A DNA stretch of 64,000 bases from Leucoraja ocellata (lineage: Eukaryota). Below are positions 7,253-63,531 of this stretch, piece after piece (position 1 is the first letter of the stretch; each line of letters begins with the position of its first letter). The notes under the pieces were generated by a model, which saw nothing but the letters and a program-made list of their open reading frames with translations, was not told the origin of the DNA and ran no database searches. The stretch is from contig JAWMAR010000508.1 of NCBI GenBank assembly GCA_036785375.1, forward strand, positions 992,001-1,056,000, in the 5' to 3' direction. The translations under genes were made by a program, and so were the position numbers.

Positions 7253-10200
7253 CGTTCAGCTATCCCCCTCTGATCTTAATTTTCCCCCGTAGGTTGTTCC
7301 TAGTGTATGAGTAAGAGTCATGGAAACAATGAAGTTGCAGAGACTTCATAAGGAAGTGGACAGAAGTAGGAACAGGAAACTTAATGCAAAAAATCACGAT
7401 GTCCTTTATACAGAAGGGAAAATGTTTCGAACAGTTCCCCAAAGCTGAGGGTGCAGAACAGTCCTTTTATTCATCAAGAAAGCAAAGTGCTGGAGGAACT
7501 CAGCGGATCTGCGGATGGAGTGGACTAGTGTTTACACAAACAACATTTCAGATTGAGTCCCTTCTTCAGACTGGGGGAATAGAGGGTAGAAAATTGGAAA
7601 TGCAAAGTCATAGTCATAGAGTGATACAGGGTGGAAACAGGCCCTTCGGCCCAACTTGCCCACACTGGCAAACATGTCCCAGCTACACTAGTCCCACCTA
7701 CCCACGTTTGGTCCATATCCCTCCAAACCTGTCCTACACATATACATAGAAACAAAGAAAACATAGAAATTAGGTGCAGGAGTACGCCATTCGGCCCTTC
7801 GAGCCTGCACCGCCATTCAATATGATCATGGCTGAGCATCCAACTCAATATTCTGTACCTGCCTTCTCTCCATACCCCCTGATCCCCTTAGCCACATGGG
7901 CCACATCTAACTCCCTCTTAAATATAGCCAATGAACTGGCCTCAACTACCCTCTGTGGCAGAGAGTTCCAGAGATTCACCACTCTCTGTGTGAAAAAAGT
8001 TCTTCTCATCTCGGTTTTAAAGGATTCCCCCCTTATCCTTAAGCTGTGACCCCTTGTCCTGGACTTCCCCAACATCGGGAGCAATCTTCCTGCATCTAGC
8101 CTGTCCAACCCCTTAAGAATTTTGTAATTTTCTATAAGATCCCCTCTCAATCTCCTAAATTCTAGAGAGTATAAAATATAGAAAATTGGAAGTGCAAAGT
8201 CATAGTCATAGAGTGATACAGGGTGGAAACAGGCCCTTCGGCACAACTTGCCCACACTGGCAAACATGTCCCAGCTACACTAGTCCCACCTACCCACGTT
8301 TGGTCCATATCCATCCAAACCTGTCCTACCCATATACATAGAAACATAGAAAACATAGAAATTAGGTGCAGGAGTAGGTCATTCGGCCCTTCGAGCCTGC
8401 ACCGCCATTCAATATGATCATGGCTGATCACTACCTCTATGGCAAGAATGTCCTTTCTCAGATTTGGAGACCAAAACTGTATGCAATACTCCAGGTGTGG
8501 TCTCTCCAAGACCCTGTACAACTGCAGTAGAACCTCCCTGCTCCTATACTAAAATCCTTTTGCTATGAATATCCCTGTTTGTGTATAACAGCCCTATCGA
8601 AATATATGCTCGCATTGAGTTTGCTCTCTATATTAGCATTATCACTATAACTTATGAAGTGGCAGAAACTCGAGAGGCCCAAAGACCTCTTGATATATGA
8701 GGAAAAAGACAGAAGTTGTGACAGGAAATCTAGTGCTAAAAATGAAAATGTTCTTTCACAGAATGATGGGAAATGTATCGCAGAGTTCCCCAAAGCTGAG
8801 GGTGCATAACACTCCCTTTAATGCTTTTAATGTCTTTTAATTGTTAAATCTCTCCCTGCACGGGAGACCCGACCTTTTCTTGTCGGGTCTCCGTTGTGGT
8901 TGGGGCTGCAACGAGGAGCGGCCTCCAACAGGGAGACCGGGAGCTCTGGTGCCGACGACTCACCGTCGCAGGGCTGGCCGAGTCCAGAGCGGGTGGAGCG
9001 GTGGTGGAGCGCTGCTGCTGCTGCGGCCCGACCTCCGGAGGCTGCAACTGTGGGTCTGCCATGATCATATTGAATGGCGGTGCAGGCTCGAAGGGCCGAA
9101 TGGCCTCTACTCCTGCACCTAATTTCTATGTTTCTATGATCACCCGTTCACACTGATTTCAGGAAGGTCAGAGGGGGCAGACATACCCCCCATCCATATA
9201 AACGGGACTGAGGTGGAGCGCGTCTCCAACTACAAATTCCTCGGGGTACACATCTTGTTGTGGCAGGATGGTTCAGTTGCCTGATAACAGCCGGGAAGAA
9301 ACTCTCCCTGAATCTGGAGGTGTGCGTTCGTTTTCACACTTCTGTACCTCTTGCCCGATGGGAGAGGGGAGAAGAGGGAGTGGCCGGGGGTGAGACTGGT
9401 CCTTGATTTTGCTGCTGGCCTTGCCGAGGCAGCGTGAGGTGTAGGTGGAGGCGATGGAAGGGAGGTTGGTTCGTGTGTGATGGTCTGAGCTGCATCTCAG
9501 AGACCGTGATCTATACAGCAAGCTCAAGCCCAGCTACAAATGAGCCTCTGCTCAGCCCTTCTCTGTCCACTCTGCCCACTTTCTCTGACATTTCTCTCTG
9601 CCCATCTCCCTCGTTCCTTACTCTCTATAATCAATCTCCCAGTAAGAATGTTCCTGATGTTGGGGAAGTCCAGAACAAGGAGCCACACAGTTTAAGGATA
9701 AGGGGGAAATCTTTTAGGACGGAGATGAGAAAAACATTTTTCACACACAGAGAGTGGTGAATCTGTGGAATACCCTGCCACAGAAGCTAGTTGAAGCCCG
9801 TTCATTGGCTATATTTAAGAGGGAGTTAGATGTGGCCCTTGTGGCTAAATGGATCAGGGGGTATGCAGAGAAAGCAGGTACAGGAATTCTGAGTTGGGTG
9901 ATCAGCCGTGATCATATTGAATGGTGAATGGTGCAGGCACGAAGGGCCCAATGGCCTACTCCTGCACCTATTGTCTATGTTTCTATGTCTATGGATGAGA
10001 TAGAAACATCAGGTCCAGGATACTTGGGCAATCTGCCCTGCCCCTCTCCCAAACACAGTGGTAGCGGTGGGGTGGGGAGGGGGTTATGATTGGAGAGGGC
10101 CCTGATTTTAGGCTGACGCAGTGTGTACCTCCCCTCTTTCTCGTTCTGGTGAGTAAATGGCAGTGAAGACATTCGGACAGTTTCCAGATCATCCCGCACC

Positions 10201-10313
10201 TCATTTGTTGCGACAACACGCTGCCCAGACGATTACAGGAACTACGCCTATGAAGATGACGGCAAGAACGATCAGGGCCACGATGCATATCCAGGACCTT
10301 TCCGAGCCACGTG
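10201..10313 (-). CDS. Siglec-like cassette A, transmembrane exon ending in a stop
   Basis: (S)RGSERSWICIVALIVLAVIFIGVVPVIVWAACCRNK*. The TGA at 10203-10201 is followed immediately by a donor-like g|gtgcgg. Confidence 0.82.
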
Positions 10314-11357: not shown

Positions 11358-11639
11358 ATTCTACAGTGAGGGTCACATCCCTCTCTGCTGTCCCGTGTTT
11401 ATTCTCTGCCACACACTGATAGACCCCAGCATCCTGCCATGTCAGCTGAGGGAACTCCATCCACAGCTCGTTGTTGGAACGTGTTGTGTTCAGCGTGACA
11501 CCGAGATGTCTCCACGTCAGGTTAGATGCTGGGAAACTCTGGACGGAGCAGAGGATCGCTGCAGAGTTTCCTTCCTTTACACTGACCCAGGAACTGTTCA
11601 CGTAATCGGGGGAAGTGATTGAGAGATTCCGCGGGGCAT
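11358..11639 (-). CDS. Siglec-like cassette A, Ig domain 4 exon
   Basis: 282-nt phase1-1 exon, a close paralog of the domain 3 exon, with canonical splice sites. Confidence 0.9.
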
Positions 11640-12722: not shown

Positions 12723-13270
12723 ACCTACACAATAGTCTATGTTTAGGGAAATGAGAGATAGACAATGGTGTAGAGAGATAAAGAACAATGATTGAATGAT
12801 GAGCAAAAAAAGTAACCATGATAAAGGAAACAGGCCATTGTTCGCTGTTTGTTGGATGAGAACGAGAAGCTGGTGCGACTTGGGCGGGGGAGAGATAGAG
12901 AGATGGTGGCCGACTAGGAAAGAGTGAGATGCAGCGAGACCTGGGTGTCATGGTACATCAGTCATTGAAGGTAGGCATGCAGGTGCAGCAGGCAGTGAAG
13001 AAAGCGAATGGTATGTTAGCTTTCATAGCAAAAGGATTTGAGTATAGGAGCAGGGAGGTTCTACTGCAGTTGTACAGGGTCTTGGTGAGACCACACCTGG
13101 AGTATTGCGTACAGTTTTGGTCTCCAAATCTGAGGAAGGACATTATTGCCATAGAGGGAGTGCAGAGAAGGTTCACCAGACTGATTCCTGGGATGTCAGG
13201 ACTGTCTTATGAAGAAAGACTGGATAGACTTGGTTTATACGCTCTAGAATTTAGGAGATTGAGAGGGGAT

Positions 13271-15080
13271 CTTATAGAAACTTACAAAATTCTTAAGGGG
13301 TTGGACAAGCTAGATGCAGGAAGATTGCTCCCGATGTTGGGGAAGTCCAGGACAAGGGGTCACAGCTTAAGGATAAGGGGGAAATCCTTTAAAACCGAGA
13401 TGAGAAGAACTTTTTTCACACAGAGAGTGGTGAATCTCTGGAACTCTCTGCCACAGAGGGTAGTCGAGGCCACAGTTCATTGGCTATATTTAAGAGGGAG
13501 TTAGATGTGGCCCTTGTGGCTAAGGGGATCAGGGGGAATGGAGAGAAGGCAGGTACGGGATACTGAGTTGGATGATCAGCCATGATCATATTGAATGGCG
13601 GTGCAGGCACGAAGGGCCAAATGGCCTACTCCTGCACCTAATTTCTATGTTTCTATGTTTCTATGAAACGTCACCCTATTTCTACTCTCCAGAGATGCTG
13701 CCTGTCCCGCTGAGTTACTCCAGCTTTTTTGTGACTCTCTTCAGTTTAAACCAGCACCTGCAGTTCCTTCCTACACATTGTGGCTGCTGCACTGCGAAAT
13801 CTCCTCAAGGCATGTCTACTTTGAAGAAAATCTCCTCTTTCTGACAAGAGAGAGTCGTAGGGTGATAGTGTGGAAACAGGCCCTTAGGCCTAACTTGCCC
13901 ACACCGGCCAACATGTCCCAGATACACTAGTGCCACCTGCCCACATTGGCCCATATCCTACCAAACTTGTCGTATCCATATACCTGTCTAACTGTTTCTT
14001 AAACGTTGGGATAACTCCCTGACTTAACTACCTCCTCTGGCAGCTCATTCCATACACCAACTTCCCTTTGTGTGAACAAGTCACCCCTCAGGTTCCTATT
14101 AAATATTTTCCCTTCACCTTGAACTTATGTCTTATAGAAACTTACAAAATTCTTAAGGAGTTGGACAGGCTAGATGCAGGAAGATTGTTCCCGATGTTGG
14201 GGAAGTCCAGGACAAGGGGTCACAAATTAAGGATAAGGGGGAAATCCTTTAAAACCGAGATGAGAAGAACTTTTTTCACACACAGAGTGGTGAATCTCTG
14301 GAACTCTCTGCCACAGAGGGTAGTCGAGGCCACAGTTCATTGGCTATATTTAAGAGGGAGTTAGATGTGGCCCTTGTGGCTAAGGGGATCAGGGGGTATG
14401 GAGAGAAGGCAGGTACGGGATACTGAGTTGGATGATCAGCCATGATCATATTGAATGGCGGTGCAGGCACGAAGGGCCAAATGGCCTACTCCTGCACCTA
14501 ATTTCTATGTTTCTATGTTTCTATGAAACGTCACCCTATTTCTACTCTCCAGAGATGCTGCCTGTCCCGCTGAGTTACTCCAGCTTTTGTGTGACTCTCT
14601 TCAGTTTAAACCAGCACCTGCAGTTCCTTCCTACACATTGTGGCTGCTGCACTGCGAAATCTCCTCAAGGCATGTCTACTTTGAAGAAAATCTCCTCTTT
14701 CTGACAAGAGAGAGTCGTAGGGTGATAGTGTGGAAACAGGCCCTTAGGCCTAACTTGCCCACACCGGCCAACATGTCCCAGATACACTAGTGCCACCTGC
14801 CCACATTGGCCCATATCCTACCAAACTTGTCGTATCCATATACCTGTCTAACTGTTTCTTAAACGTTGGGATATCTCCCTGACTTAACTACCTCCTCTGG
14901 CAGCTCATTCCATACAACAACTTCCCTTTGTGTGAACAAGTCACCCCTCAGGTTCATATTAAATATTTTCCCTTCACCTTGAACTTATGTCTTATAGAAA
15001 CTTACAAAATTCTTAAGGAGTTGGACAGGCTAGATGCAGGAAGATTGTTCCCGATGTTGGGGAAGTCCAGGACAAGGGGT
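13271..15080 (+). repeat. 860-bp tandem duplication (CR1 3' end + SINE + CR1 pieces), about 2.1 copies
   Basis: ORFs at 13572/14432 and 14068/14928 recur at an exact 860-bp period. Also present in C (about 59.6-61.4 kb) and absent in B. Confidence 0.85.
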
Positions 15081-15775: not shown

Positions 15776-16057
15776 ATTCTACAGTGAGGGTCCCATTCCT
15801 CTCTGCTGTCCCGTGTTCATTCTCTGCCACACACTGATAGACCCCAGCGTCCTGCCATGTCAGCTGAGAGAACTCCATCCACAGTTCGTTGTTGGAACGT
15901 GTTGTGTTCAGCGTGGCACCGAGATGTCTCCACGTCAGGTTAGATGTTGGGAAACTGTGGACAGAGCAGAGGATCGCTGGAGAGTTTCCTTCATTTATAC
16001 TGACCCAGGAACTGTTCACGTCATCGGGGGAAGTGATTGATAGATTCTGGGGGGCGT
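15776..16057 (-). CDS. Siglec-like cassette A, Ig domain 3 exon
   Basis: 282-nt phase1-1 exon with the B-strand Cys, C-strand Trp and DAGVYQC motif, and canonical splice sites. Confidence 0.9.
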
Positions 16058-16718
16058 CTACAAACAGATAAAATTCAGCAATCAGTTTTGTGGCACTTAC
16101 ATAGAAACATAGAAATTAGGTGCATGAGTATGCCGTTCGGCCCTTCGAGCCTGCACCGCCATTCAATATGAACATGGCTGATCATCCAACTCAGTATCCA
16201 GTACCTGCCTTCTCTCCATACCCCCTGAGCCCCTTAGCCACAAGGGCCACATCTAACTCCCTCTTAAATATAGCCAATGAACTGTGGCCTCGACTACCCT
16301 CTGCGGCAGAGAGTTCCAGAGATTCACCACTCTCTGTGTGAAAAAACGTTCTTCTCATCTCGGTTTTAAAGGATTTCCCCCTTATTCTTAAGCTGTGACC
16401 CCTTGTCCTGGACTTCCCCAACATCGGGAGCAATCTTCCTGCATCTAGCCTATCCAACCCCTTAAGAATTTTGTAAGTTTCTATAAGATCCCCTCTCAAT
16501 TACCTAAATTCTAGAGAGTATAAACCAAGTCTATCCAGTCTTTCTTCATAAGACAGTCCTGACATCCCAGGAATCAGTCTGGTGAACCTTCTCTGCACTC
16601 CCTCTATGGCAAGAATGTCCTTCCTCAGATTTGGAGACCAAAACTGTACGCAATACTCCAGGTGTGGTCTCACCAAGACCCTGTACAACTGCAGTAGAAC
16701 CTCCCTGCTCCTATACTC

Positions 16719-17795
16719 CTATGGGAGAAGCCAGAGGGTAATGGTGGATGGCTGTTTTTCGGGTTGGAGGCAGTTGATTAGTGGGGTGCCTCGGGGACCT
16801 GTGTTGGGTCCTTTTTTGTTTGTCATGTACATCAATGATCTGGATGAAGGTGTGGTAAATTGGATTAGTAAGTATGCAGATGATACCAAGATAGGGGGAG
16901 TTGTGGATAATGAAGAGGATTTCCAAAGTCTACAGAGTGATTTAGGCCATTTGGAAAAATGGGCTGAAAGATGGCAGATGGAGTTTAATGCTGATAAATG
17001 TGAGGTGCTACACCTTGGCAGGACAAATCAAAATAGGACGTACATGGTAAATGGTATGGAATTGAAGAATACAGTTGAACAGAGGGATCTGGGTATAACC
17101 GTGCATAGTTCCTTGAAGGTGGAATCGCATATAGATAGGGTGGGAAAGAAAGCTTTTGGTATGCTAGCCTTTATAAATCAGAGCATTGAGTATAGAAGCT
17201 GGGATGTAATGTTAAAATTGTACAAGGCATTGGTGAGACCAAATCTGGAGTATGGTGTACAATTTTGGTCGCCCAATTATAGGAAGGATGTCAACAAAAT
17301 AGAGAGAGTACAGAGGAGATTTACTAGAACGTTGCCTGGGTTTCAACAACTAAGTTACAGAGATAGGTTGAATAAGTTAGGTCTTTATTCTCTGGAGCGC
17401 AGAAGGTTAAGGGGGGACCTGATAGAGGTCTTTAAAATGATGAGAGGGATAGACAGAGTTGATGTGGACAAGCTTTTCCCTTTGAGAATAGGGAAAATTC
17501 AAACAAGAGGACATGACTTCAGAATTAAGGGACAGAAGTTTAGGGGTAATATGAGGGGGAACTTCTTTACGCAGAGAGTGGTGGCGGTGTGGAATGAGCT
17601 CCCAGTGGAAGTGGTGGAGGCAGGTTCATTGGTATCATTTAAAAATAAATTGGATAGGCATATGGATGAGAAGGGAATGGAGGGTCATGGTATGAGTGCA
17701 GGCAGGTGGGACTAAGGGGAAAAAATTGTTCGGCATGGACTTGTACGGCCGAGATGGCCTGTTTCCGTGCTGTAATTGTTATATGGTTATATGGT
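16719..17795 (+). mobile_element. CR1 LINE with RT domain, nested inside a minus-strand CR1 (16098-17935)
   Basis: GVPRGPVLGPFLFVMYINDL...SKYADDTKIGG in an open frame. TSD-like tatactc at 16712-16718 and 17796-17802. Confidence 0.9.
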
Positions 17796-18112: not shown

Positions 18113-18406
18113 ATTGAACAGCCATTGTGAGGATCTGCTCGGATGAGACTGCTGGGTATGCGACTCTGCAGGTGAGGTTTTGCCCGTGATGTTTGAGTGC
18201 TGGGGTCAGGTACAGAACAGAAGTATATGTCAGAGTGTCTCCCTGCTGAGTTACGCTGCGTGAGGCTAACGGCGGTTCATCAGCGGGGGTGACCCAGGTT
18301 AAGGTGGGGGCTGTTCCATCACACGTGGTGTAGAAGGAGCAGGTCATGTTCACAGGCCGACCTGCCACCATTTCAGCAGGGAATATCGTGGGTTTATCTG
18401 TGAAAT
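18113..18406 (-). CDS. Siglec-like cassette A, domain 2 (C2-set) exon
   Basis: 294-nt phase1-1 exon, (D)FTDKPTIFPAEMVAGRPVNMTCSFYTTCDGTAPTLTW...SVLYLTPALKHHGQNLTCRVAYP...VQ. The extra Cys after the B-strand Cys is typical of Siglec domain 2. Confidence 0.92.
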
Positions 18407-21346: not shown

Positions 21347-21712
21347 CAATAACACGGAGCTGTGTTGGAGGGTGGTAGTTGTAACGATTTCCATCTCCAA
21401 AATCAACTCTGAAAAAATAAGGACCTGTATCTTGCTGCCTGACGTTGTCTATAACCAGGGAACAGTCCTTGTCTCTCAGGAATCCTGACAGCCGGGTCCG
21501 ATGCTGAAACTGTGTTGATATTACACTGGGATACCTGGAGTGGAAGGCTACAGACCGATGGTTCTGTGTCTCACTGTTATACCAGATTCCAGTCCGTGGT
21601 TTTTTATTTAGATACGACGGGTGCCTGTACTGACACGGAATCCGTGCACACAGGCCATTCTGCGCTGTCACATGTGGTGGATCCCACGGTCTCCACTGTC
21701 CCGACACCACGG
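21347..21712 (-). CDS. Siglec-like cassette A, V-set sialic acid-binding domain exon
   Basis: 366-nt phase1-1 exon. It has an N-terminal Trp, a B-strand C-x4-C (GLCARIPC), an E-strand Cys (DCSL), the F-strand YFFR arginine in place of the usual Ig F-strand Cys, and G-strand aromatics (RYNY). Confidence 0.93.
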
Positions 21713-21849: not shown

Positions 21850-22670
21850 CCTCACTCCTCACCCCCCCCCCCCCTCACACAGTCCGTCACTCCCTCTTCA
21901 CCCCCCCCCCCTCACACAGTGTGTCACTTCCACCTCCCCCCCCACAGTGTGTGTCACTCCCTACAACAGTGCATCACTCCCTCCCACAGTATGTCACTCC
22001 TCACCACCCCCCCACAGTGCATCACTACCTCCCACAGTGCATCACTCCCTCCTCACTGCCCCCCCACAGTTCGTCACTCCCTCATCACTGCCCCTCCCAC
22101 AGTGTGTGTGTCACTCCCTACAACAGTGCATCACTCCCTCACACAGTGTGTCACTCCTCACTGCCCCCCCCCCACAGTGCGTCACGCGGCCCTCACCACC
22201 CCTCCCACAGTGCATCACTCCCTCCTCACCCCCCCCCCCCATAGTGTGTGTAACTCCATCCTCACCCCCTCCCACAGTGCGTCGCTCCCTCTTCACCGTC
22301 CCCCCCCCCACAGTGCGTTACTCCCTCTTCACTGCGCCTCCCACACTGCATCACTCCCTCCCACAGCGCATCACTCCCTCCCACACTGATCTCTCCTCCC
22401 ACAGTGCATCACTCCCTCCTCACCGCCCCTCCCACACTGCATCACTCCTCCCACAGTGCGTCACTCCCTCTCACAGTGCATCACTCCCTCCCACACTGCA
22501 TCACTCCTCTCACAATGCATCGCTCCCTCCTCACCCCCCCCCCCCCCCACAGTGCATCACTCCCTCCCACAGTGTCTCACTCCCTCATCACCGCCCCTCC
22601 CACAGTGCGTTACTCCCTCCCACAGTGCATCACTCCCTCCTCACCGCACCTTCCACAGTGCGTCACTCCC
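21850..22670. repeat. C-rich minisatellite (cacagtgcatcactccctcc-like units) in the intron 5' of the V exon
   Basis: Degenerate tandem array. A shorter version is at 37845-38465. Confidence 0.9.
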
Positions 22671-22915: not shown

Positions 22916-24389
22916 TTGCGGTGACCGATTAGGAAAAGAGGAGATGCAGCGAGACCTGGGTGTCATGGTACAACAGTCCTTGAAAGTAGGCATGCAGGTG
23001 CAGCAGGCAGTGAAGAAAGCGAATGGTATGTTAGCATTCATAGCAAAAGGATTTGAGTCTAGGAGCAGGGAGGTTCTACTGCAGTTGTACAGGGTCTTGG
23101 TCCCTTCTTCAGACTGGGGGAATAGAGGGTAGAAAATTGGAAATGCAAAGTCATAGTCATAGAGTGATACAGGGTGGAAACGGGCCCTTCGGCCCAACTT
23201 GCCCACACTGGCAAACATGTCCCAGCTACGCTAGTCCCACCTACCCAAGTTTGGTTCATATCCCTCCAAACCTGTCCTACCCATATACATAGAAACATAG
23301 AAAACATAGAAATTAGGTGCAGGAGTAGGCCATTCGGCCCTTCGAGCCTGCACCGTCATTCAATATGATCATGGCTGATCATCCATCTCAGTATCCTGTA
23401 CCTGCCTTCTCTCCATACCCCCTGATCCCCTTAGTCACAAGGGCCACATCTAACTCCCTCTTAAATATAGCCAATGAACTGGCCTCAACTACCCCTTGTG
23501 GCAGAGAGTTCCAGAGATTCACCACTCTCTGTGTGAAAAAAGTTCTTCTCATCTCGGTTTTAAAGGATTTCCCCCTTATCCTTAAGCTGTGACCCCTTGT
23601 CCTGGACTTCCCCAACATCGGGAGCAATCTTACTGCATCTAGCCTGTCCAACCCCTTAAGAATTTTGTAAGTTTCTATAAGATTCCCTCTCAGTCTCCTA
23701 AATTCTAGAGAGCATAAACCAAGTCTATCCAGTCTTTCTTCATAAGACAGTCCTGACATCCCAGGAATCAGTCTGGTGAACCTTCTCTGCACTCCCTCTA
23801 TGGCAAGAATGTCCTTCCTCAGATTTGGAGACCAAAACTGCAATACTCCAGGTGTGGTCTCACCAAGACCCTGTACAACTGCAGTAGTACCTCCCTGCTC
23901 CTATACTCAAATCATTTTGCTATGAATATCCCTGTCTGTGTATAACAGCCCTATCGAAATATATGCTCGCATTGAGTTTGCTCTCTATATTAGCATTATC
24001 ACTATAACTTATGAAGTGGCAGAAACTCGAGAGGCCCAACGACCTCTTGATATATGAGGAAATAGACAGAAGTTGTGACAGGAAATCTAGTGCTAAAAAT
24101 GAAAATGTTCTTTCACAGAATGATGGGAAATGTATCGCAGAGTTCCCCAAAGCTGAGGGTGCATAACACTCCCTTTAATGCTTTTAATGTATTTTAATTT
24201 TTAATTTAATGTAATTTAATTTAATTTAATAACACTCCCTTTAATGCTTTTAATGTCTTTTTAATTTTTACTGTTTTTATAGTCTTATGTGGTCTTAATG
24301 GTTTTAGTAGTTTGTAATAACTTTTTGTTGACTTCCCATGTACAGCACTTTGTGGTAACTGATGTTGTCTAAAAGCGCTTTATAAATAA

Positions 24390-27400: not shown

Positions 27401-28263
27401 CGGATCCAACCCCTTCCCACATGTCACAATAAACTAAAAAGTAACTAAACTCTACTCCATCCCAGCGTCGGGATGTCAGGGCTTTCATATGAAGAAAGAT
27501 TGGATAGACTCGGCTTGTACTCGCTAGAATTTAGAAGATTGAGGGGGGATCTTATAGAAACGTACGACATTCTTAAGGGGTTGGACAGGCTAGATGCAGC
27601 AAGATTGTTCCTGATGTTGGGGAAGTCCAGAACAAGGGGCCACACAGTTTAAGGATAAGGGGGAAATCTTTTAGGACAGAGATGAGAAAAGCATTTTTCA
27701 CACACAGAGAGTGGTGAATCTGTGGAATTCTCTGCCACAGAAGGTAGTTGAGGCCACAGTTCATTGGCTATATTTAAGAGGGAGTTAGATGTGGCCCTTG
27801 TGGCTAAGGGGATCAGGGGGTATGGAGAGAAGTCAGGTACAGGATACTGAGTTGGATGATCAGCCATGATCATATTGAATGGCGGTGCAGGCTCGAAAGG
27901 CCGAATGGCCTCTACTCCTGCACCTAAATTGAATGTTTCTATGTTTCTATGAAAGGTTCAGAGAGATATGGGCCAAATGGGACTTATTTAGATGGGACAC
28001 TTGGACGAGTTGGGCCGAATGGCACCTATTGTCTATGTTTCTATGTCTATGGATGAGATAGAAACATCAGGTCCAGGATACTTGGGCAATCTGCCCTGCC
28101 CCTCTCCCAGACACAGTGGTAGCGGTGGGGAGGGGGGGGGGGGGGGTTATGATTGGAGAGGGCCCTGATTTTAGGCTGACGCAGTGTCTACCTCCCCTCT
28201 TTCTCGTTCTGGTGAGTAAATGGCAGTGAAGACATTCGGACAGTTTCCAGATCATCCCGCACC

Positions 28264-28376
28264 TCATTTGTAGCTACAACACGCTGGCCAGACGATTACA
28301 GGGACTACGCCTATGAAGATGACGGCAAGAACGATCAGGGCCACGATGCATTTCCAGGACCTTTCCGAGCCACGTA
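28264..28376 (-). CDS. Siglec-like cassette B, transmembrane exon ending in a stop
   Basis: Acceptor ctccacccctcag| then (L)RGSERSWKCIVALIVLAVIFIGVVPVIVWPACCSYK*. Confidence 0.8.
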
Positions 28377-29433: not shown

Positions 29434-29715
29434 ATTCTACAGTGAGGGTCACATCCCTCTCTGCTGTCCCGTGTTTATTCTCTGCCACACACTGATAGAC
29501 CCCAGCATCCTGCCATGTCAGCTGAGGGAACTCCATCCACAGCTCGTTGTTGGAACGTGTTGTGTTCAGCGTGACACCGAGATGTCTCCACGTCAGGTTA
29601 GATGCTGGGAAACTCTGGACGGAGCAGAGGATCGCTGCAGAGTTTCCTTCCTTTACACTGACCCAGGAACTGTTCACGTAATCGGGGGAAGTGATTGAGA
29701 GATTCCGCGGGGCAT
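29434..29715 (-). CDS. Siglec-like cassette B, Ig domain 4 exon
   Basis: 282-nt phase1-1 exon, (Y)APRNLSI...ILCSVQSFP...DAGVYQCVAENKHG...LTVE, with canonical splice sites. Confidence 0.9.
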
Positions 29716-31752: not shown

Positions 31753-32034
31753 ATTCTACAGTGAGGGTCCCATTCCTCTCTGCTGTCCCGTGTTCATTCT
31801 CTGCCACACACTGATAGACCCCAGCGTCCTGCCATGTCAGCTGAGAGAACTCCATCCACAGTTCGTTGTTGGAACGTGTTGTGTTCAGCGTGGCACCGAG
31901 ATGTCTCCACGTCAGGTTAGATGTTGGGAAACTGTGGACAGAGCAGAGGATCGCTGGAGAGTTTCCTTCCTTTATACTGACCCAGGAACTGTTCACGTCA
32001 TCGGGGGAAGTGATTGATAGATTCTGGGGGGCGT
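31753..32034 (-). CDS. Siglec-like cassette B, Ig domain 3 exon
   Basis: 282-nt phase1-1 exon, (Y)APQNLSI...ILCSVHSFP...W...DAGVYQCVAEN...LTVE, with tttgtag acceptor and gtgagt donor. Confidence 0.9.
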
Positions 32035-34104: not shown

Positions 34105-34399
34105 ATTGAACAGCCATTGTGAGGATCTGCTCGGATGAGACTGTTGGGTATAGCGACTCTGCAGGTGAGGTTTTGCCCGTGATGTTTGAGTGCTGGGGTC
34201 AGGTACAGAACAGAAGTATATGTCAGAGTGTCTCCCTGCTGAGTTACGCTGCGTGAGGCTAACAGCGGTTCATCAGCGGGGGTGACCCAGGTTAAGGTGG
34301 GGGCTGTTCCATCACACGTGGTGTAGAAGGAGCAGGTCATGTTCACAGGCCGACCTGCCACCATTTCAGCAGGGAATATCGTGGGTTTATCTGTGAAAT
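34105..34399 (-). pseudogene. Siglec-like cassette B, domain 2 (C2-set) exon with a 1-nt insertion frameshift
   Basis: 295 nt versus 294 nt in cassette A. An extra base near 34152 (gggtatagcg vs gggtatgcg) shifts the frame after TCRVA. It lies in an indel-rich stretch, so it may be an assembly error. Confidence 0.8.
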
Positions 34400-37339: not shown

Positions 37340-37705
37340 CAATAACACGGAGCTGTGTTGGAGGGTGGTAGTTGTAACGATTTCCATCTCCAAAATCAAC
37401 TCTGAAAAAATAAGGACCTGTATCTTGCTGCCTGACGTTGTCTATAACCAGGGAACAGTCCTTGTCTCTCAGGAATCCTGACAGCCGGGTCCGATGCTGA
37501 AACTGTGTTGATATTACACTGGGATACCTGGAGTGGAAGGCTACAGACCGATGGTTCTGTGTCTCACTGTTATACCAGATTCCAGTCCGTGGTTTTTTAT
37601 TTAGATACGACGGGTGCCTGTACTGACACGGAATCCGTGCACACAGGCCATTCTGCGCTGTCACATGTGGTGGATCCCACGGTCTCCACTGTCCCGACAC
37701 CACGG
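37340..37705 (-). CDS. Siglec-like cassette B, V-set sialic acid-binding domain exon
   Basis: 366-nt phase1-1 exon (ctcctcag| ... |gtaagt) encoding GLCARIPC, RTRLSGFLRDKDCSL, DTGPYFFRVD, NRYNY. Protein is identical to cassette A. Confidence 0.92.
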
Positions 37706-39468
37706 CTGAGGAGAGAAGGAACAATCTTTAGCAGTGAACACCCTGTCAGTTCACTGGACTCACTCTCCACACATTTTATCCTGCGCTGTGGGCCTGGTGT
37801 GTACAGAGCGGGGAAGAGTGGCGTGGTGGTGTAGTGGTAGAGCCTCACTCCTCACCCCCCCCCCCCCCCTCACACAGTCCGTCACTCCCTCTTCACCCCC
37901 CCCCCCTCACACAGTGTGTCACTTCCACCTCCCCCCCACAGTGTGTGTCACTCCCTACAACAGTGCATCACTCCCTCCCACAGTATGTCACTCCTCAACA
38001 CCCCCCCACAGTGCATCACTCCATCCTCACCCCCTCCCACAGTGCGTCGCTCCCTCTTCACCGTCCCCTCCCCCACAGTGCGTTACTCCCTCTTCACTGC
38101 GCCTCCCACACTGCATCACTCCCTCCCACAGCGCATCACTCCCTCCCACACTGATCTCTCCTCCCACAGTGCATCACTCCCTCCTCACCGCCCCTCCCAC
38201 ACTGCATCACTCCTCTCACAGTGTCTCACTCCCTCCTCACCCCCCCTCCCACAGTGCGTCACTCCCTCTCACAGTGCATCACTCCCTCCCACACTGCATC
38301 ACTCCTCTCACAATGCATCGCTCCCTCCTCACCCCCCCCCTCCCACAGTGCATCACTCCCTCCCACAGTGTCTCACTCCCTCCTCACCGCCCCTCCCACA
38401 GTGCGTTACTCCCTCCCACAGTGCATCACTCCCTCCTCACCGCACCTTCCACAGTGCGTCACTCCCAGGGACCAGTAGAGTTTCCCTTGTGGCCAGGGCC
38501 CGGAGCGCAAGGAGCACCGCCACTCCACCTCGGGCCCATAGGGGGAGGAGTGACTCTGCTGTCAGCGACCGAAGGACTGGTGATGGGATCTAGGGAGTTG
38601 GCAGGGCCGAAGATGGCCTGGCTGGGTTGCTCCTGGGCCTGGCCAAGCTGGCCATCCGCGAGTCACGGTGCCAGGCGGAAGAGGGCTTTGCCTGAACAGT
38701 TGCTTGCATCTTTGCGGTGACCGATTAGGAAAAGAGGAGATGCAGCGAGACCTGGGTGTCATGGTACAACAGTCCTTGAAAGTAGGCATGCAGGTGCAGC
38801 AGGCAGTGAAGAAAGCGAATGGTATGTTAGCATTCATAGCAAAAGGATTTGAGTCTAGGAGCAGGGAGGTTCTACTGCAGTTGTACAGGGTCTTGGTGAG
38901 ACCACACCTGGAGTATAGCGTACAGTTTTGGCCTCCTAATCTGAGGAAAGACATTCTTGCCATAGAGGGAGTGCAGAGAAGGTTCATCAGACTGATTCCT
39001 GGGATGTCAGGACTTTCATATGAAGAAAGACTGGATAGACTGGGCTTTAGAATTTAGAAGATTGAGGGGGGATCTAATAGGAACTTACAAAATTCTTAAG
39101 GGGTTGGACAGGCTAGATGCAGGAAGATTGTTCCCGATGTTGCGGAAGTCCAGGACAGGAGGGTCACAGTTTAAGAATAAAGGATAAATCTTTAAGGATA
39201 TGGGATGATGTTCCTCCAATTTGCATTTAGCCCCACTCTGACAGTAGAGGAGACCTAGGACAGAAAGGTCATTGTGAGAATGGGACGGGTGATTAAAGTG
39301 TTTGGCAACCGGGAGATCAGGTAGGTCCAGGCAGACTGAGCGAAGGTGTTCAGCGAAATGATCATAGCAGCCCCAGAACCGACCCCTGCGGAACTCCGCT
39401 AGTCACTGGCAGCCAACCACTAAAAGCCTCCTTGCCCGTAAACACTTCCGAGTTGCTGCTGGTGGTAC

Positions 39469-39508
39469 CTTGGAGAAGGGAGAGGAGGAAGAACGATCGC
39501 CCGATCAT
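39469..39508 (-). CDS. Siglec-like gene, signal peptide (leader) exon, coding part
   Basis: Minus strand reads tactttctcttccag|atcggg...ATG ATC GGG CGA TCG TTC TTC CTC CTC TCC CTT CTC CAA G|gtacca = MIGRSFFLLSLLQ plus a phase-1 G. Splicing to the V exon gives MIGRSFFLLSLLQAVVSG-QW, a typical signal peptide. The full exon including 5'UTR is 39469-39542. Confidence 0.85.
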
Positions 39509-39993: not shown

Positions 39994-41503
39994 ATTCAAA
40001 CTTTCAAGGTCAGTTTATTGTCTCATGTACCATTTAAGGTACTGTGAAGTTCGAATAACCAACAAAAAGCAACAAGAGACACAACTACATAAAAGTCACC
40101 ATAAACACCCACCACAGCGGACTCCCCACGATCCTCACCGGGACCGAAGGCAATAAAGTCCAAACCGCTTCTTCCTCTTTTATTCTCCCATGGTCGGGGC
40201 AATCGAACTATCCGCAGTCGGGAGGATTGGAGCTCCCGCAGCCGGCAGTGGAAGACCCCGTGTCGGGGCGATCGAAGACCTCGCGTCGAGGCGGTGGAAG
40301 ACCCCGCGTCCGGGCGATCGAAGACCCCGCGTCGGGGCGGTGGAAGACCCTGCGTCGGGGCGATCGAAGACCCCTCGTCGGGGCGGTGGAAGACCCCGCG
40401 TTGGGGCGACCGAAGACCCCGCGTCGGGGCGGTGGAAGACCCCGCATCGGGGCGATGGAAGACCCCGCATTGGGGCGGTGGAAGACCCCGCGTTGGGGCG
40501 ATCGAAGACCCCGCATCGGGGCGGTGGAAGACCCCACGTCGGGGCGGTGGAAGACCCCACGTCGGGGCGGTGGAAGACCCCGCGTCGGGGCGGTGGAAGA
40601 CCCCACGTCGGGGCGGTGGAAGACCCCACGTCGGGGCGATCGAAGACCCCAAGTCGGGGCGGTGGAAGACCCCGTGTCGGGGCGGTGGAGGACCCCGCGT
40701 CGGGGCGATCGAATACCCCACGTCGGGGCGATGGAAGACCCCGCGTCGGGGCGATGGAAGACCCCGTGTCGGGGCGGTGGAAGACCCCGCGTCGGGGCGA
40801 CCGAAGACCCCAAGTCGGGGCGGTGGAAGACCCCGCGTCGGGGCGATGGAAGACCCCGCGTCGGGGCGATGGAAGACCCCGCGTCGGGGCGGTGGAAGAC
40901 CCCGTGTCGGGGCGGTGGAAGACCCCGTGTCGGGGCGGTGGAAGACCCCGTGTCGGGGCGGTGGAAGACCCCGTGTCGGGGCGGTGGAAGACCCCGTGTC
41001 GGGCCGGTGGAAGACCCCGTGTCAGGGCGGTGGAAGACCCCGTGTCGGAGCGGTGGAAGACCCTGTGTCGGGGCGATCGAAGCTCCTGCGGTTTGGAGTT
41101 TCCCGAAGTCGGTCTCTAACCAGCGAGCACAAGCTCCACAATGTTAAAGTCCACAGGCACCCATGGGTGGATCCCCAAACTTGACCCCGACAGGGATCGT
41201 AAGCTCCGTGATGGTAAGTCCTGCAGACACCCGGGGTACAGCTCTCCAAGTCGGTCTCATGCAAATGCCACCAACTCCTCGATGTTAGACCGCAGTGCGG
41301 ACGGAAATGTGATACGGAAGAAAATCGCATCTCCGTTGAGGTAAGTGATTATAAAAAGTTTCCCACAACTCCCGCCCACTCCATACATAAAACAAGCTAA
41401 AGAACACTAAAAACATACATTTAACACACACAAACAGACAACAAAACAGGAAGGGACAGACAGAGTGTTGGCGAGGCAGCCATTGCTAGCACCGCCTGGT
41501 GGT
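39994..41503 (-). mobile_element. GC-rich non-autonomous retroposon with an internal minisatellite, inserted in a CR1
   Basis: The CR1 is split between 39993 and 41504. The minus-strand tail has gacaataaac...ttgaa, and the head is ggcggtgctagcaatggctgcctcgcc. Confidence 0.65.
40244..41082. repeat. 23-bp GC-rich minisatellite (gtcggggcggtggaagaccccgc), about 36 copies
   Basis: Direct tandem units with no spacers. It explains the long Pro/Arg/Gly ORFs in all frames. Confidence 0.92.
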
Positions 41504-56443: not shown

Positions 56444-56631
56444 CTACCTCCCCTCTTTCTCGTTCTGGTGAGTAAATGGCAGTGAAGACATTCGGACAGT
56501 TTCCAGATCATCCCGCACCTCATTTGTAGCTACACACGCTGGCCAGACGATTACAGGGACTACGCCTATGAAGATGACGGCAAGAACGATCAGGGCCACG
56601 ATGCATTTCCAGGACCTTTCCGAGCCACGTA
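56444..56631 (-). pseudogene. Siglec-like paralog C, transmembrane exon with a 1-nt deletion
   Basis: Same TM as B, but tgttgtagc becomes tgtgtagc. This bypasses the TGA and gives ...WPACVATNEVRDDLETVRMSSLPFTHQNEKEGR*. Confidence 0.7.
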
Positions 56632-57684: not shown

Positions 57685-57966
57685 ATTCTACAGTGAGGGT
57701 CACATTCCTCTCTGCTGTCCCGTGTTTATTCTCTGCCACACAATGTTAGACCCCAGCATCTTGCCATGTCAGCTGAGGGAACTCCATCCACAGCTCGTTG
57801 TTGGAACGTGTTGTGTTCAGCGTGACACCGAGATGTCTCCACGTCAGGTTAGATGCTGGGAAACTCTGGACGGAGCAGAGGATCGCTGTAGAGTTTCCTT
57901 CCTTTACACTGACCCAGGAACTGTTCACGTCATCGGGGGAAGTGATTGAGAGATTCCGCGGGGCAT
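57685..57966 (-). pseudogene. Siglec-like paralog C, Ig domain 4 exon with a nonsense codon
   Basis: GGG GTC TAT CAG TGT (GVYQC) in A and B is GGG GTC TAA CAT TGT here. The stop is at 57748-57746. Confidence 0.85.
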
Positions 57967-60900
57967 CTACAAACAGATAAAATTCAGCAATCAGTTTTGT
58001 GGCACTTCCATGATTAACAATGTTACAAAATTTTGAGATTTATAAAATCAAGTCTGTAATTTATCCCATCAGATAAAGCATACAAAGATGTTTAATTTGA
58101 CACCTAATTCACTTTCATATCTCAAGTATTTAAACAGTTATGACCATTTTCATACTCGGAAATTAGCATCTTGTTCCCTATTGATTTTCTATGGACATAA
58201 CAAAAAAGCTGTGATCGCGTGCTGTCAAAAGGCCATAACCTTCTTAAAAATTAAGAGAACTGAATGAATTTTTCAGTTATCGTAGATTGAAGCATTCTGA
58301 AACAAATATAAAATAATCTTACTTGGATGACCTGAAATTAAAACATATAATTAGTTAGTTACCCAAGTGTAGCAAATTTCAAACTTCAATTACTAGATCT
58401 AAACATCTATCCATTTCTTAATAAATGATTAACATTTTTAAATAGCCCAAGTGTCCAAATAATATTCATAAATAATTCACAATAAAATATGATTTTGAAA
58501 TCTCATTTACATTAATTTATAGGCCAAATGGAAGGAATTTAGTGTTCAATTGCTGCAAATTAAAGTCCATTTAAATCAGCTTTCTAGTGGGTTCCTGTGG
58601 AACGCGCTGGTTTAGAACGTTCACATTGCGCTGGATTTGTGCCTCAAATGCCCAGAAAAACACTGCGGGATATAAAGAGCCCAAAATGACCTACTCGCTA
58701 TAGAAAACTTTGTATAAAGGGTATTTAAGAAGCCCCTTTTTAATGTAAAAATAAGGTACATACCTTTAATTGTTTGCTTTATAAAACCCTGGGGCTGCGA
58801 GAGGTCGCGGGTTTAGAGAGTGATTTTTAAACTACTATAACTATTATACAAGGCCATAAAAACTAATAATACCTTTTGCGACGGGGTATTTCAGCGATTT
58901 TCGTTAATGATTTACTAGGCTGAATATTTTCGATTGGAACAGCCTAGTAGAAATCCGCTTTTAAACCCGCCCCCTCTAAACAGCGCCAAAATCACACACA
59001 CGGGCTGGGGCAGATTCTCAATGACGCTTCAGTTAGTTTTGTAACATACCTACACAATAGTCTATGTTTAGGGAAATGAGAGATAGACAATGGTGTAGAG
59101 AGATAAAGAACAATGAATGAATGATGTGCAAAAAAAGTAACCATGATAAAGGAAACAGGCCATTGTTCGCTGTTTGTTGGATGAGAACGAGAAGCTGGTG
59201 CGACTTGGGCGGGGGAGAGATTGAGAGATGGTGGCCGACTAGGAAAGAGTGAGATGCAGCGAGAACTGGGTGTCATGGTACACCAGTCATTGAAGGTAGG
59301 CATGCAGGTGCAGCAGGCAGTGAAGAAAGCGAATGGTATGTTAGCTTTCATAGCAAAAGGATTTGAGTATAGGAGCAGGGAGGTTCTACTGCAGTTGTAC
59401 AGGGTCTTGGTGAGACCACACCTGGAGTATTGCGTACAGTTTTGGTCTCCAAATCTGAGGAAGGACATTATTGCCATAGAGGGAGTGCAGAGAAGGTTCA
59501 CCAGACTGATTCCTGGGATGTCAGGACTGTCTTATGAAGAAAGACTGGATAGACTTGGTTTATACGCTCTAGAATTTAGGAGATTGAGAGGGGATCTTAT
59601 AGAAACTTACACAATTCTTAAGGGGTTGGACAGGCTAGATGCAGGAAGATTGCTCCCGATGTTGGGGAAGTCCAGGACAAGGGGTCACAGCTTAAGGATA
59701 AGGGGGAATCCTTTAAAACCGAGATGAGAAGAACTTTTTTCACACAGAGAGTGGTGAATCTCTGGAACTCTCTGCCACAGAGGGTAGTCGAGGCCACAGT
59801 TCATTGGCTATATTTAAGAGGGAGTTAGATGTGGCCCTTGTGGCTAAGGGGATCAGGGGGTATGGAGAGAAGGCAGGTACGGGATACTGAGTTGGATGAT
59901 CAGCCATGATCATATTGAATGGCGGTGCAGGCACGAAGGGCCAACTGGCCTACTCCTGCACCTAATTTCTATTTTCTATGTTTCTATGAAACGTCACCCT
60001 ATTTCTACTCTCCAGAGATGCTGCCTGTCCCGCTGAGTTACTCCAGCTTTTTTGTGACTCTCTTCAGTTTAAACCAGCACCTGCAGTTCCTTCCTTCACA
60101 TTGTGGCTGCTGCACTGCGAAATCTCCTCAAGGCATGTCTACTTTGAAGAAAATCTCCTCTTTCTGACAAGAGAGAGTCGTAGGGTGATAGTGTGGAAAC
60201 AGGCCCTTAGGCCTAACTTGCCCACGCCGGCCAACATGTCCCAGATACACTAGTGCCACCTGCCCACATTGGCCCATATCCTACCAAACTTGTCGTATCC
60301 ATATACCTGTCTAACTGTTTCTTAAACGTTGGGATAACTCCCTGACTTAACTACCTCCTCTGGCAGCTCATTCCATACACCAACTTCCCTTTGTGTGAAC
60401 AAGTCACCCCTCAGGTTCCTATTAAATATTTTCCCTTCACCTTGAACTTATGTCTTATAGAAACTTACAAAATTCTTAAGGAGTTGGACAGGCTAGATGC
60501 AGGAAGATTGTTCCCGATGTTGGGGAAGGTCCAGGACAAGGGGTCACAACTTAAGGATAAGGGGGAAATCCTTTAAAACCGAGATGAGAAGAACTTTTTC
60601 ACACAGAGAGTGGTGAATCTCTGGAACTCTCTGCCACAGAGGGTAGTCGAGGCCACAGTTCATTGGCTATATTTAAGAGGGAGTTAGATGTGGCCCTTGT
60701 GGCTAAGGGGATCAGGGGGTATGGAGAGAAGGCAGGTACGGGATACTGAGTTGGATGATCAGCCATGATCATATTGAATGGCGGTGCAGGCACGAAGGGC
60801 CAAATGGCCTACTCCTGCACCTAATTTCTATGTTTCTATGTTTCTATGAAACGTCACCCTATTTCTACTCTCCAGAGATGCTGCCTGTCCCGCTGAGTTA

Positions 60901-61520
60901 CTCCAGCTTTTGTGTGACTCTCTTCAGTTTAAACCAGCACCTGCAGTTCCTTCCTACACATTGTGGCTGCTGCACTGCGAAATCTCCTCAAGGCATGTCT
61001 ACTTTGAAGAAAATCTCCTCTTTCTGACAAGAGAGAGTCGTAGGGTGATAGTGTGGAAACAGGCCCTTAGGCCTAACTTGCCCACACCGGCCAACATGTC
61101 CCAGATACACTAGTGCCACCTGCCCACATTGGCCCATATCCTACCAAACTTGTCGTATCCATATACCTGTCTAACTGTTTCTTAAACGTTGGGATAACTC
61201 CCTGACTTAACTACCTCCTCTGGCAGCTCATTCCATACACCAACTTCCCTTTGTGTGAACAAGTCACCCCTCAGGTTCATATTAAATATTTTCCCTTCAC
61301 CTTGAACTTATGTCTTATAGAAACTTACAAAATTCTTAAGGAGTTGGACAGGCTAGATGCAGGAAGATTGTTCCCGATGTTGGGGAAGTCCAGGACAAGG
61401 GGTGAAGAAAGCGAATGGTATGTTAGCTTTCATAGCAAAAGGATTTCAGTATAGGAGCAGGGAGGCTCTACTGCAGTTGTACAGGGTCTTGGTGAGACCA
61501 CACCTGGAGTATTGCGTACA

Positions 61521-63249: not shown

Positions 63250-63531
63250 ATTCTACAGTGAGGGTCCCATTCCTCTCTGCTGTCCCGTGTTCATTCTCTG
63301 CCACACACTGATAGACCCCAGCGTCCTGCCATGTCAGCTGAGAGAACTCCATCCACAGTTCGTTGTTGGAACGTGTTGTGTTCAGCGTGGCACCGAGATG
63401 TCTCCACGTCAGGTTAGATGTTGGGAAACTGTGGACGGAGCAGAGGATCGCTGGAGAGTTTCCTTCCTTTATACTGACCCAGGAACTGTTCACGTCATCG
63501 GGGGAAGTGATTGATAGATTCTGGGGGGCGT
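63250..63531 (-). CDS. Siglec-like paralog C, Ig domain 3 exon
   Basis: 282-nt intact exon nearly identical to domain 3 of A and B. Its upstream exons lie beyond the window. Confidence 0.88.

What the first reader, a model, noticed from the sequence alone, without database searches (positions are those of the whole stretch)
21347..21712. V-set domain keeps the full sialic-acid-binding signature
Seen: an N-terminal Trp (QWRPW), GLCARIPC, an E-strand Cys (KDCSL), DTGPYFFRVD with Arg on the F strand, RYNY on the G strand, and an extra Cys in domain 2 (TCSFYTTC). Established: these match the Siglec intra-sheet B-E disulfide, the domain 1-domain 2 disulfide and the essential arginine (equivalent to sialoadhesin R97 and MAG R118). 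Inference: this is a functional lectin. Its architecture (V + 3 Ig) and tandem clustering do not fit the conserved Siglec-1, CD22, MAG or Siglec-15 orthologues. It suggests a lineage-specific chondrichthyan expansion analogous to mammalian CD33-related Siglecs.
Basis: partly seen in the sequence, partly recalled or inferred. Interest (0 to 1): 0.75.

Follow-up and report, generated by a model that had tools for sequence, protein, structure and literature searches.

The report
Leaderless copy of tail-less skate Siglec
This is the sugar-binding exon of a skate sialic-acid receptor (Siglec) from a large shark-and-ray gene family; its binding residues are intact, but this copy has no start exon of its own and its subfamily has lost the signalling tail, so it is probably a silent duplicate rather than a working lectin gene.

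Summary
Observation confirmed. 21347-21712 (minus strand) is one intact V-set exon. Its Trp, three Cys, Arg and G-strand Tyr align with sialoadhesin W2/R97/W106 and MAG R118. This is the family default: Arg is kept in 154 of 168 related V domains.

The family reading largely holds. 130 relatives come from 21 shark and ray species, expand order by order, and include ITIM-type tails and Arg-transmembrane forms. No named MAG, CD22, Siglec-1, Siglec-15 or CD33-related sequence could be put in a tree.

"Functional lectin" is not supported for this copy:
- The window holds one leader exon (39469-39508). It belongs to an identical V copy at 37340-37705, whose next exon is frameshifted.
- The flagged exon lies in a leaderless intragenic duplicate (junction about 23100).
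- The transmembrane exon stops six residues past the membrane, at the same place as in three other skate genera.
- A remnant of the last tail exon lies inverted nearby.
- 27 of 32 differences from the Leucoraja counterpart arose on this lineage, which suggests decay.

Verdict: a new member of a known family, of moderate interest; the family is more interesting than the exon.

The parts
21347..21712 (-). V-set exon, copy A (the finding); intact, no leader exon of its own
18113..18406 (-). C2-set exon (domain 2), copy A; intact, carries the extra Cys
15776..16057 (-). Ig domain 3 exon, copy A; intact
11358..11639 (-). Ig domain 4 exon, copy A; intact
10200..10313 (-). Transmembrane exon, copy A; uncharged helix, ends WAACCRNK then TGA one base before the old splice donor
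9487..9543 (+). Remnant of the last cytoplasmic exon (Tyr motif), on the strand opposite to the gene, i.e. inverted
   Evidence: (12 of 18 identical to Rhinoraja P0024, E=9e-7)
23097..23101 (.). Duplication junction: 3'-flank DNA (as at about 51352) joined to intron-1 DNA (as at about 38897), 2-bp shared sequence
39469..39508 (-). The only leader (signal peptide) exon found in the window, MIGRSFFLLSLLQ
37340..37705 (-). V-set exon, copy B; identical to copy A (551 of 551 bases with flanks)
34105..34399 (-). C2-set exon, copy B; one extra base, frameshift (stop after 245 aa when spliced in order)
31753..32034 (-). Ig domain 3 exon, copy B
29434..29715 (-). Ig domain 4 exon, copy B
28263..28376 (-). 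Transmembrane exon, copy B; same early stop
63250..63531 (-). Ig domain 3 exon, copy C (5' part lies outside the window)
57685..57966 (-). Ig domain 4 exon, copy C; in-frame stop
56519..56631 (-). Transmembrane exon, copy C; one base short

Best explanation
The exon encodes the lectin domain of a skate Siglec of a tail-less subfamily. The intact gene type (seen in Leucoraja, 458 aa) makes a type I membrane protein: leader, V-set, C2, two further Ig domains, an uncharged transmembrane helix and a six-residue stub. It most likely binds sialylated glycans through an Arg-carboxylate salt bridge, as other Siglecs do (inferred from residue alignment and fold). With no Tyr motif and no charged membrane residue it cannot signal by the ITIM or adaptor routes. 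It would work as a capture, adhesion or decoy receptor beside its inhibitory paralogues (inferred). The tail was lost by an Arg-to-stop change before Rajidae and Arhynchobatidae separated (stop shown here; shared end position shown; single origin inferred from the tree). The flagged copy arose by a recent intragenic tandem duplication that copied V to TM but not the leader exon (shown). With the leader-bearing copy frameshifted, the third copy stopped, and an excess of lineage-specific changes, this locus is most likely a decaying member of a birth-and-death cluster, and the flagged exon is probably not expressed as a gene of its own.
For: One leader exon in 64 kb, searched with 8 relatives' leaders. 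Clean junction between 3' flank and intron 1 at about 23100. V copies identical. Frameshift in copy B and stop in copy C. TGA where tailed relatives read K-R-E, and the intron read-through matches that of Rhinoraja P0042. The same end in P0005 (Leucoraja), P0022 (Amblyraja), P0023 (Rhinoraja) and unnamed P0011. These four plus the window gene and two TM-less models form one clade, SH-aLRT 91. P0011 holds leader, V, C2, C and TM on a 1,467-base contig, which implies a spliced transcript of the tail-less type (inference). Last tail exon inverted; the middle tail exon was not found. 27 of 32 differences from P0005 are window-derived, 13 of them to residues seen in no relative (binomial p=1.1e-4).
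Against: All five copy-A exons are intact with canonical splice sites, and leader + copy A gives an open 458-aa frame, the same length as P0005. The assembly looks noisy: 21 of 23 one-base indels between copies A and B lie in homopolymer runs, so the frameshifts in B and C may be errors, although the copy-B insertion is not in a run. The ends of the database proteins are gene models whose DNA I could not see. The polarity call rests on the majority residue among skate relatives. Support of 91 for the tail-less clade is below the tool's 95 mark. No expression or binding data exist for this locus.
Confidence: 0.62

Rival explanations
1. Cassette rescue: the single leader (alone or with the identical V exon of copy B) splices across the broken copy B onto copy A, so the flagged cassette is the working part of one composite gene and makes a 458-aa tail-less lectin.
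For: All Ig exons are phase 1-1. Leader + copy A, and leader + V(B) + rest of copy A, both give 458 aa; skipping only the frameshifted exon gives 360 aa. Copy A is the only complete intact set in the window, and its TM exon is closest to the Leucoraja one.
Against: Splicing would have to skip up to 17.8 kb with several strong exons, including a TM exon with a stop. The excess of lineage-specific changes fits relaxed selection better. No transcript evidence.
Confidence: 0.15
2. Assembly artefact: copies A and B are two haplotypes or read sets of one intact gene stacked in tandem, and the frameshifts are consensus errors. The real locus is one normal tail-less Siglec gene.
For: V exons identical; 0.52% substitutions between A and B over 6,714 bases; 28 indel events against 35 substitutions, mostly one base in homopolymers.
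Against: The junction shares only 2 bases, not the long repeat that a collapsed or misjoined overlap would usually need. A and B differ at 4 residues in the TM exon and have different 3' flanks, B's matching copy C.
Confidence: 0.15
3. It is MAG or a MAG co-orthologue rather than a CD33-related-like receptor.
For: MAG is the best PDB sequence match. The exon has WxxW at the position of MAG W22-W25, a motif that PMC5150538 describes as kept in MAG orthologues and absent from other Siglecs. 12 of 130 relatives have the five-domain MAG layout, and the last domain aligns with MAG Ig5.
Against: WxxW is in 0 of 168 related V domains, the 90%-identical Leucoraja one included, so it is a recent private change. 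Identity of the model is about equal to MAG (31-34%), CD33 (31-32%) and sialoadhesin (29-31%). Scores are about equal for MAG Ig1-3 and Siglec-8: 146.9 against 137.4 bits, 155.9 against 156.7. Up to 14 family clusters per species in the sample does not fit a single-copy orthologue. Descent of the whole family from a MAG-like ancestor is not excluded.
Confidence: 0.05
4. The residues are kept for folding or by recent descent, and the domain does not bind sialic acid.
For: The window V domain carries changes seen in no relative right after the first Trp (A22P, D23W, N24D). In MAG a modified Trp at that site lowers ganglioside binding (PMC5150538, passages). Residue presence does not prove binding.
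Against: Arg, the first Trp and the G-strand Tyr are all in place, and Arg is kept in 154 of 168 relatives while the loops around it vary widely, the pattern of a constrained binding site.
Confidence: 0.1

Closest known systems
Siglec family (I-type lectins): sialoadhesin/Siglec-1 V-set domain
   Same: Fold (Foldseek rank 1, TM 0.81); W2, R97, R105 and an aromatic at W106 align. Like Siglec-1 it has no signalling motif (PMC13358205, passage).
   Different: About 30% identity; 4 Ig domains against 17 (recalled); member of a multicopy family.
MAG (Siglec-4)
   Same: Best sequence match in the PDB; Ig1-Ig2 Cys pair, R118 and Y127 equivalents; WxxW at the same place; relatives have an Ig5-like domain.
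   Different: 31-34% identity; no Ig5 exon and no tail in this gene; Asn where MAG has T128; WxxW is private to this gene; multicopy and fast-changing.
Mammalian CD33-related Siglecs (CD33, Siglec-5, -7, -8, -10, -14)
   Same: Lineage-specific expansion, variable Ig number, broken copies, variable CC' and FG loops, proximal plus distal Tyr motifs such as LLYANI...TEYAQI in shark members, short-tailed Arg-TM members.
   Different: 25-33% identity; common descent not tested; this gene has neither a tail nor a charged TM residue; many shark models carry 2-6 tandem V domains.
[quoted passage not shown] Leucoraja erinacea P0005
   Same: Same exon layout and length (458 aa), 426 of 458 residues identical, same stop after the membrane.
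   Different: Here the locus is internally duplicated and partly broken. The database names are automatic labels, not tested assignments.

Membership tests
Siglec | N-terminal V-set domain followed by a C2-set domain, type I membrane protein | tested here: met
   (leader only through the exon at 39469)
Siglec | Essential Arg on the F strand | tested here: met
   aligns with sialoadhesin R97 and MAG R118; in strand E96-103 of the model
Siglec | B-E intra-sheet Cys pair in place of the B-F pair, and domain 1-domain 2 Cys pair | tested here: met
   Cys 35, 40, 97 and 164 present and aligned with MAG; Phe at the F-strand position in 165 of 168 relatives; the bonds themselves were not observed
Siglec | Aromatic residues on the A and G strands | tested here: met
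   Trp aligns with sialoadhesin W2, Tyr with W106
Siglec | Arg-dependent sialic acid binding | not testable with these tools
   needs a binding assay
Functional gene (this copy) | Own start codon and leader exon | tested here: not met
   one leader exon in the window, upstream of copy B; junction at about 23100
MAG orthologue | Five Ig domains and a cytoplasmic tail | tested here: not met
   four Ig exons, stop after TM
MAG orthologue | Much closer to MAG than to other Siglecs | tested here: not met
   about equal scores and identities for MAG, Siglec-8, CD33 and sialoadhesin
MAG orthologue | WxxW C-mannosylation motif | tested here: inconclusive
   present here but in 0 of 168 relatives
MAG orthologue | Placement in the MAG clade and conserved synteny | not testable with these tools
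   no named MAG sequence obtained; no vertebrate genome collection; no neighbouring gene found among 53 other ORFs scanned
CD22, Siglec-1, Siglec-15 orthologues | 7, 17 and 2 Ig domains (recalled); Tyr-motif tail in CD22; TM Lys in Siglec-15 | tested here: not met
   4 Ig exons, no tail, uncharged TM; CD22 scores 56-62 bits against 147 for MAG Ig1-3; Siglec-15 E=5e-7
CD33-related Siglecs | Rapid lineage-specific expansion in a cluster | tested here: met
   27 skate rows form one clade (98) and 24 shark rows another (98); same pattern
CD33-related Siglecs | Proximal ITIM plus distal ITIM-like motif, or a charged TM residue | tested here: not met
   absent from this gene; present in relatives
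CD33-related Siglecs | Common descent with the mammalian cluster (tree, synteny) | not testable with these tools

The most novel reading that the evidence does not exclude
Sharks and rays have a full paired-receptor Siglec system: inhibitory members with an ITIM plus a TEYxxI motif, short-tailed activating members with a membrane Arg, tail-less decoys (this skate subfamily), and receptors with 2-6 tandem lectin domains. It shares its ancestry with mammalian CD33-related Siglecs, which would move their origin back to the ancestor of jawed vertebrates, against the statement in PMC7226832 that fish genomes lack inhibitory CD33-related Siglecs. In the boldest form, the duplicated cassette here is live and one leader exon serves two alternative V-to-TM cassettes.
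Probability: 0.4. Interest if true: 0.7.

Novelty: new member of a known kind. Interest (0 to 1): 0.4.

Why it matters
The exon alone is ordinary: most of its relatives keep the same residues, and databases already label them Siglec-like. The family matters more. The papers I could see treat CD33-related inhibitory Siglecs as absent from fish (PMC7226832) or list the Siglec family under tetrapods (PMC13262535, one table row). The data here show a large, order-specific shark and ray repertoire with inhibitory-type, activating-type and tail-less forms. That makes the origin of sialic-acid self-recognition receptors testable in the oldest living jawed lineage. The tail-less skate subfamily, kept across two skate families, is a candidate natural decoy or capture receptor. 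The locus also shows how such clusters turn over: intragenic duplication, loss of the leader, inversion of a tail exon, decay.

Tried and rejected
A tree against named MAG, CD22, Siglec-1, Siglec-15 and CD33-related sequences could not be built. The 120 listed of 253 hits of the profile search were all elasmobranch or skate-like. The whole-library search returns no names, the name look-up could not be made, and a search from one mid-distance hit found nothing among 1,035 candidates. 126 of the 136 new unnamed hits were left unused, so the range of the family outside sharks and rays stays unchecked. The unnamed outgroup rows are long branches and did not form one side of the tree, so its root is unreliable.

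Synteny: 53 other ORFs were scanned (52 of the 67 low-copy ORFs listed, plus one LINE ORF). They gave only a reverse transcriptase hit and five ALKBH8_N hits, which I read as LINE fragments (recalled); no neighbouring gene was found.

A second leader exon was searched for and not found. The middle cytoplasmic exon was not found. Poly(A) hexamers downstream of the TM exons are weak or distant and settle nothing.

WxxW as a sign of MAG orthology was rejected because no relative has it. Intragenic [V-C2-C-C] repeats as the source of multi-V relatives were rejected: 27 of 28 such models have adjacent V domains instead. The ESM Atlas gave only generic V-set and CD33-like clusters. One search used a wrong frame for the C2 seed (its architecture counts are superseded); one search crashed and was repeated.

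Literature: nine searches (siglec with cartilaginous fish, shark, Callorhinchus, elasmobranch, chondrichthy-, skate, teleost, amphibian terms) listed no paper devoted to elasmobranch Siglecs. Subscription papers are mostly missing; Cao et al. 2009 on fish CD33-related clusters is not held and is recalled only. No supplements were read; those of PMC8455134 (gene family tables) may bear on the family's size.

Full report
Observation. The region 21347-21712 on the minus strand is one 366-nt exon with canonical splice sites and an open frame. Pfam calls it a V-set domain (E=8e-11) and the next exon a C2-set domain. The best PDB sequence matches are MAG, sialoadhesin, Siglec-5 and CD33. In those alignments the Arg of YFFRVD pairs with sialoadhesin R97 and MAG R118, the first Trp with W2/W22, and RY with R105-W106. 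An AlphaFold2 model from a 45-row alignment (pLDDT 87.4) has sialoadhesin and MAG as its top nine Foldseek matches (TM 0.78-0.81). PMC5150538 (passages) gives R118 as the carboxylate partner and C37-C165 as the Ig1-Ig2 bond; the matching Cys residues are present. The signature is real but expected: among 168 V domains from 126 of 130 related proteins, 154 keep the Arg and 112 keep all six positions tested.

Gene structure. Fourteen exons were mapped, all on the minus strand. They form copy C (domain 3, domain 4 with a stop, TM one base short; 5' part outside the window), one leader exon at 39469-39508, copy B (V, C2 with one extra base, two Ig exons, TM) and copy A (V, C2, two Ig exons, TM, all intact). 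The flagged exon is V of copy A and is identical to V of copy B over 551 of 551 bases. A search with eight relatives' leaders found only the one exon. At about 23100, DNA that matches the 3' flank of copy C is joined to DNA that matches intron 1 of copy B, with two shared bases. Copy A is therefore an intragenic duplicate that begins inside intron 1 and has no leader or start codon; the leader lies 17.8 kb upstream. Spliced in order, leader + copy B stops after 245 aa. Leader + copy A would give 458 aa, the length of Leucoraja erinacea P0005, from which it differs at 32 positions. The copies differ by 0.5-1.5% substitutions over the Ig and TM regions. One-base indels are frequent and mostly in homopolymers (21 of 23 between A and B), so the assembly is noisy and single frameshifts are uncertain.

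No tail. The TM exon has no charged residue and ends AAA TGA G|GT. Tailed relatives read K-R-E here, and a Rhinoraja model that runs into the intron matches the window's intron translation, so the TGA replaces an Arg codon. P0005 (Leucoraja), P0022 (Amblyraja, Rajidae), P0023 (Rhinoraja, Arhynchobatidae) and the unnamed P0011 end at the same residue. With the window gene and two TM-less models they form one clade in a domain 1-2 tree (SH-aLRT 91; 69 rows: 68 chosen from 126 plus the window). P0011 sits on a 1,467-base contig, which implies a spliced transcript (inference). A sawfish relative and several Rhinoraja paralogues keep a tail with Tyr motifs. In the window the last tail exon survives at 9487-9543 on the opposite strand (12 of 18 identical, E=9e-7), and the middle tail exon was not found.

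Decay. Of the 32 differences from P0005, 27 are derived on the window's lineage and 5 on Leucoraja's; 13 give residues seen in no relative, and one removes a glycosylation site kept in 117 of 130 relatives (p=1.1e-4 against equal rates). Relaxed selection is the simplest reading. Positive selection or shared consensus errors are not excluded. One of these changes creates WxxW at the position of the MAG C-mannosylation motif, which PMC5150538 describes as MAG-specific; none of 168 relatives has it.

Family. Two searches gave 130 proteins: 128 named models from 21 shark and ray species and 2 unnamed (only 120 of 253 hits were listed). The sample is seeded from a skate query and is biased towards it. 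Skate, stingray and shark sequences form largely separate clades: 27 skate rows at support 98 with 3 skate rows outside, and 24 shark rows at 98. By a hydropathy rule, 35 of 130 models lack a TM segment, 74 have a tail with a Yxx[ILV] motif, 12 a tail without one, and 9 a short stub. 24 of 130 have TEYxx[ILV] and 4 have an Arg early in the TM segment. The likeness of LLYANI...TEYAQI to mammalian CD33-related tails, and of Arg-TM forms to activating receptors, is recalled knowledge. Architectures run from V-C2 to ten extra Ig domains; 16 have this gene's layout, 12 add a domain that aligns with MAG Ig5, and 28 have more than one V domain. Variation concentrates in the loops around a fixed core.

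Orthology. Similarity does not single out one conserved Siglec. Identities are 29-31% to sialoadhesin, 31-34% to MAG, 31-32% to CD33 and 28% to Siglec-15. Scores for MAG Ig1-3 and Siglec-8 are close and CD22 is far lower. With up to 14 clusters per species, one-to-one orthology is unlikely. Whether the family descends from a MAG-like gene, shares an ancestor with the mammalian CD33-related cluster, or arose apart was not tested, because no named outgroup sequence could be obtained and synteny is out of reach.

Mechanism. Shown: residues, fold, exon layout, missing leader, early stop, inverted tail exon, order-level expansion. Inferred: sialic acid binding through the Arg; a non-signalling capture or decoy role for the tail-less type; silence of this copy. 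I put the best explanation at 0.62, cassette rescue and assembly artefact at 0.15 each, and MAG orthology at 0.05; loss of binding (0.1) can overlap with these.

Literature seen. PMC5150538: passages. PMC7226832: passages and Introduction; it states that fish genomes lack inhibitory CD33-related Siglecs and does not mention sharks or cartilaginous fish. PMC13358205: passages (two Siglec groups, essential Arg, Siglec-1 without a signalling domain). PMC8455134: one passage (Siglecs among Ig families of the jawed ancestor). PMC13262535: passages (Siglec family listed under Tetrapoda). PMC3628338: passages, not informative here. Nine searches listed no study of elasmobranch Siglecs; the library lacks most subscription papers. 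I recall that Cao et al. 2009 reported CD33-related clusters in bony fish (not held), which would lower the novelty of the family claim.

Verdict. Observation confirmed; interpretation partly supported. A new member of the Siglec family from an automatically annotated but apparently little-studied elasmobranch expansion. The flagged copy is probably non-functional on its own. Interest 0.4; the family-level reading would deserve 0.7 at a probability of about 0.4.

Noticed in passing
P0002, P0003, P0056, P0059, P0064 and others: 27 of 130 related gene models have 2-6 adjacent V-set domains; later V domains keep the Arg in 35 of 42 cases. If real, these are multivalent Siglecs; they may also be model fusions.
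   Followed up: partly
P0056, P0083, P0125, P0040: Four relatives have an Arg early in the transmembrane segment, three of them with short tails: candidate activating paired receptors.
   Followed up: partly
window 21684-21695 (-): WRPW recreates the WxxW C-mannosylation motif of MAG at the same position; 0 of 168 relatives have it. Four adjacent codons differ from Leucoraja, possibly from one local event.
   Followed up: partly
window 9487-9543 (+): Inverted remnant of the last cytoplasmic exon, about 660 bases from the TM exon of copy A, in single-copy sequence between repeat fragments; not found beside copies B and C.
   Followed up: yes
window 40244-41082: GC-rich minisatellite, 23-bp unit, 36.5 copies, about 740 bases upstream of the leader ATG.
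   Followed up: no
window 13270-15080 and 59595-61403: An 860-bp-period tandem duplication in the intron between domains 3 and 4 of copies A and C. Copy B shares its TM and 3' flank with C but its 5' part with A, so the copies are mosaics.
   Followed up: partly
window 21852-22670 and 37845-38466; 61848-62376: C-rich minisatellite in intron 1 of both V copies, and a 78-bp array in an intron of copy C.
   Followed up: no
window 16552-17715 (+) and throughout: LINE fragments (reverse transcriptase, E=2e-10); 51% of the window has five or more self-matches. Five ALKBH8_N Pfam hits are probably LINE ends, not ALKBH8 genes (recalled).
   Followed up: partly
P0182, P0200, P0204, P0223: Unnamed Siglec-like proteins outside the elasmobranch family at 43-45% V-domain identity, with the Arg; the one tested matches MAG best. 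They look bony-fish-like (impression only) and could be the sister group.
   Followed up: partly
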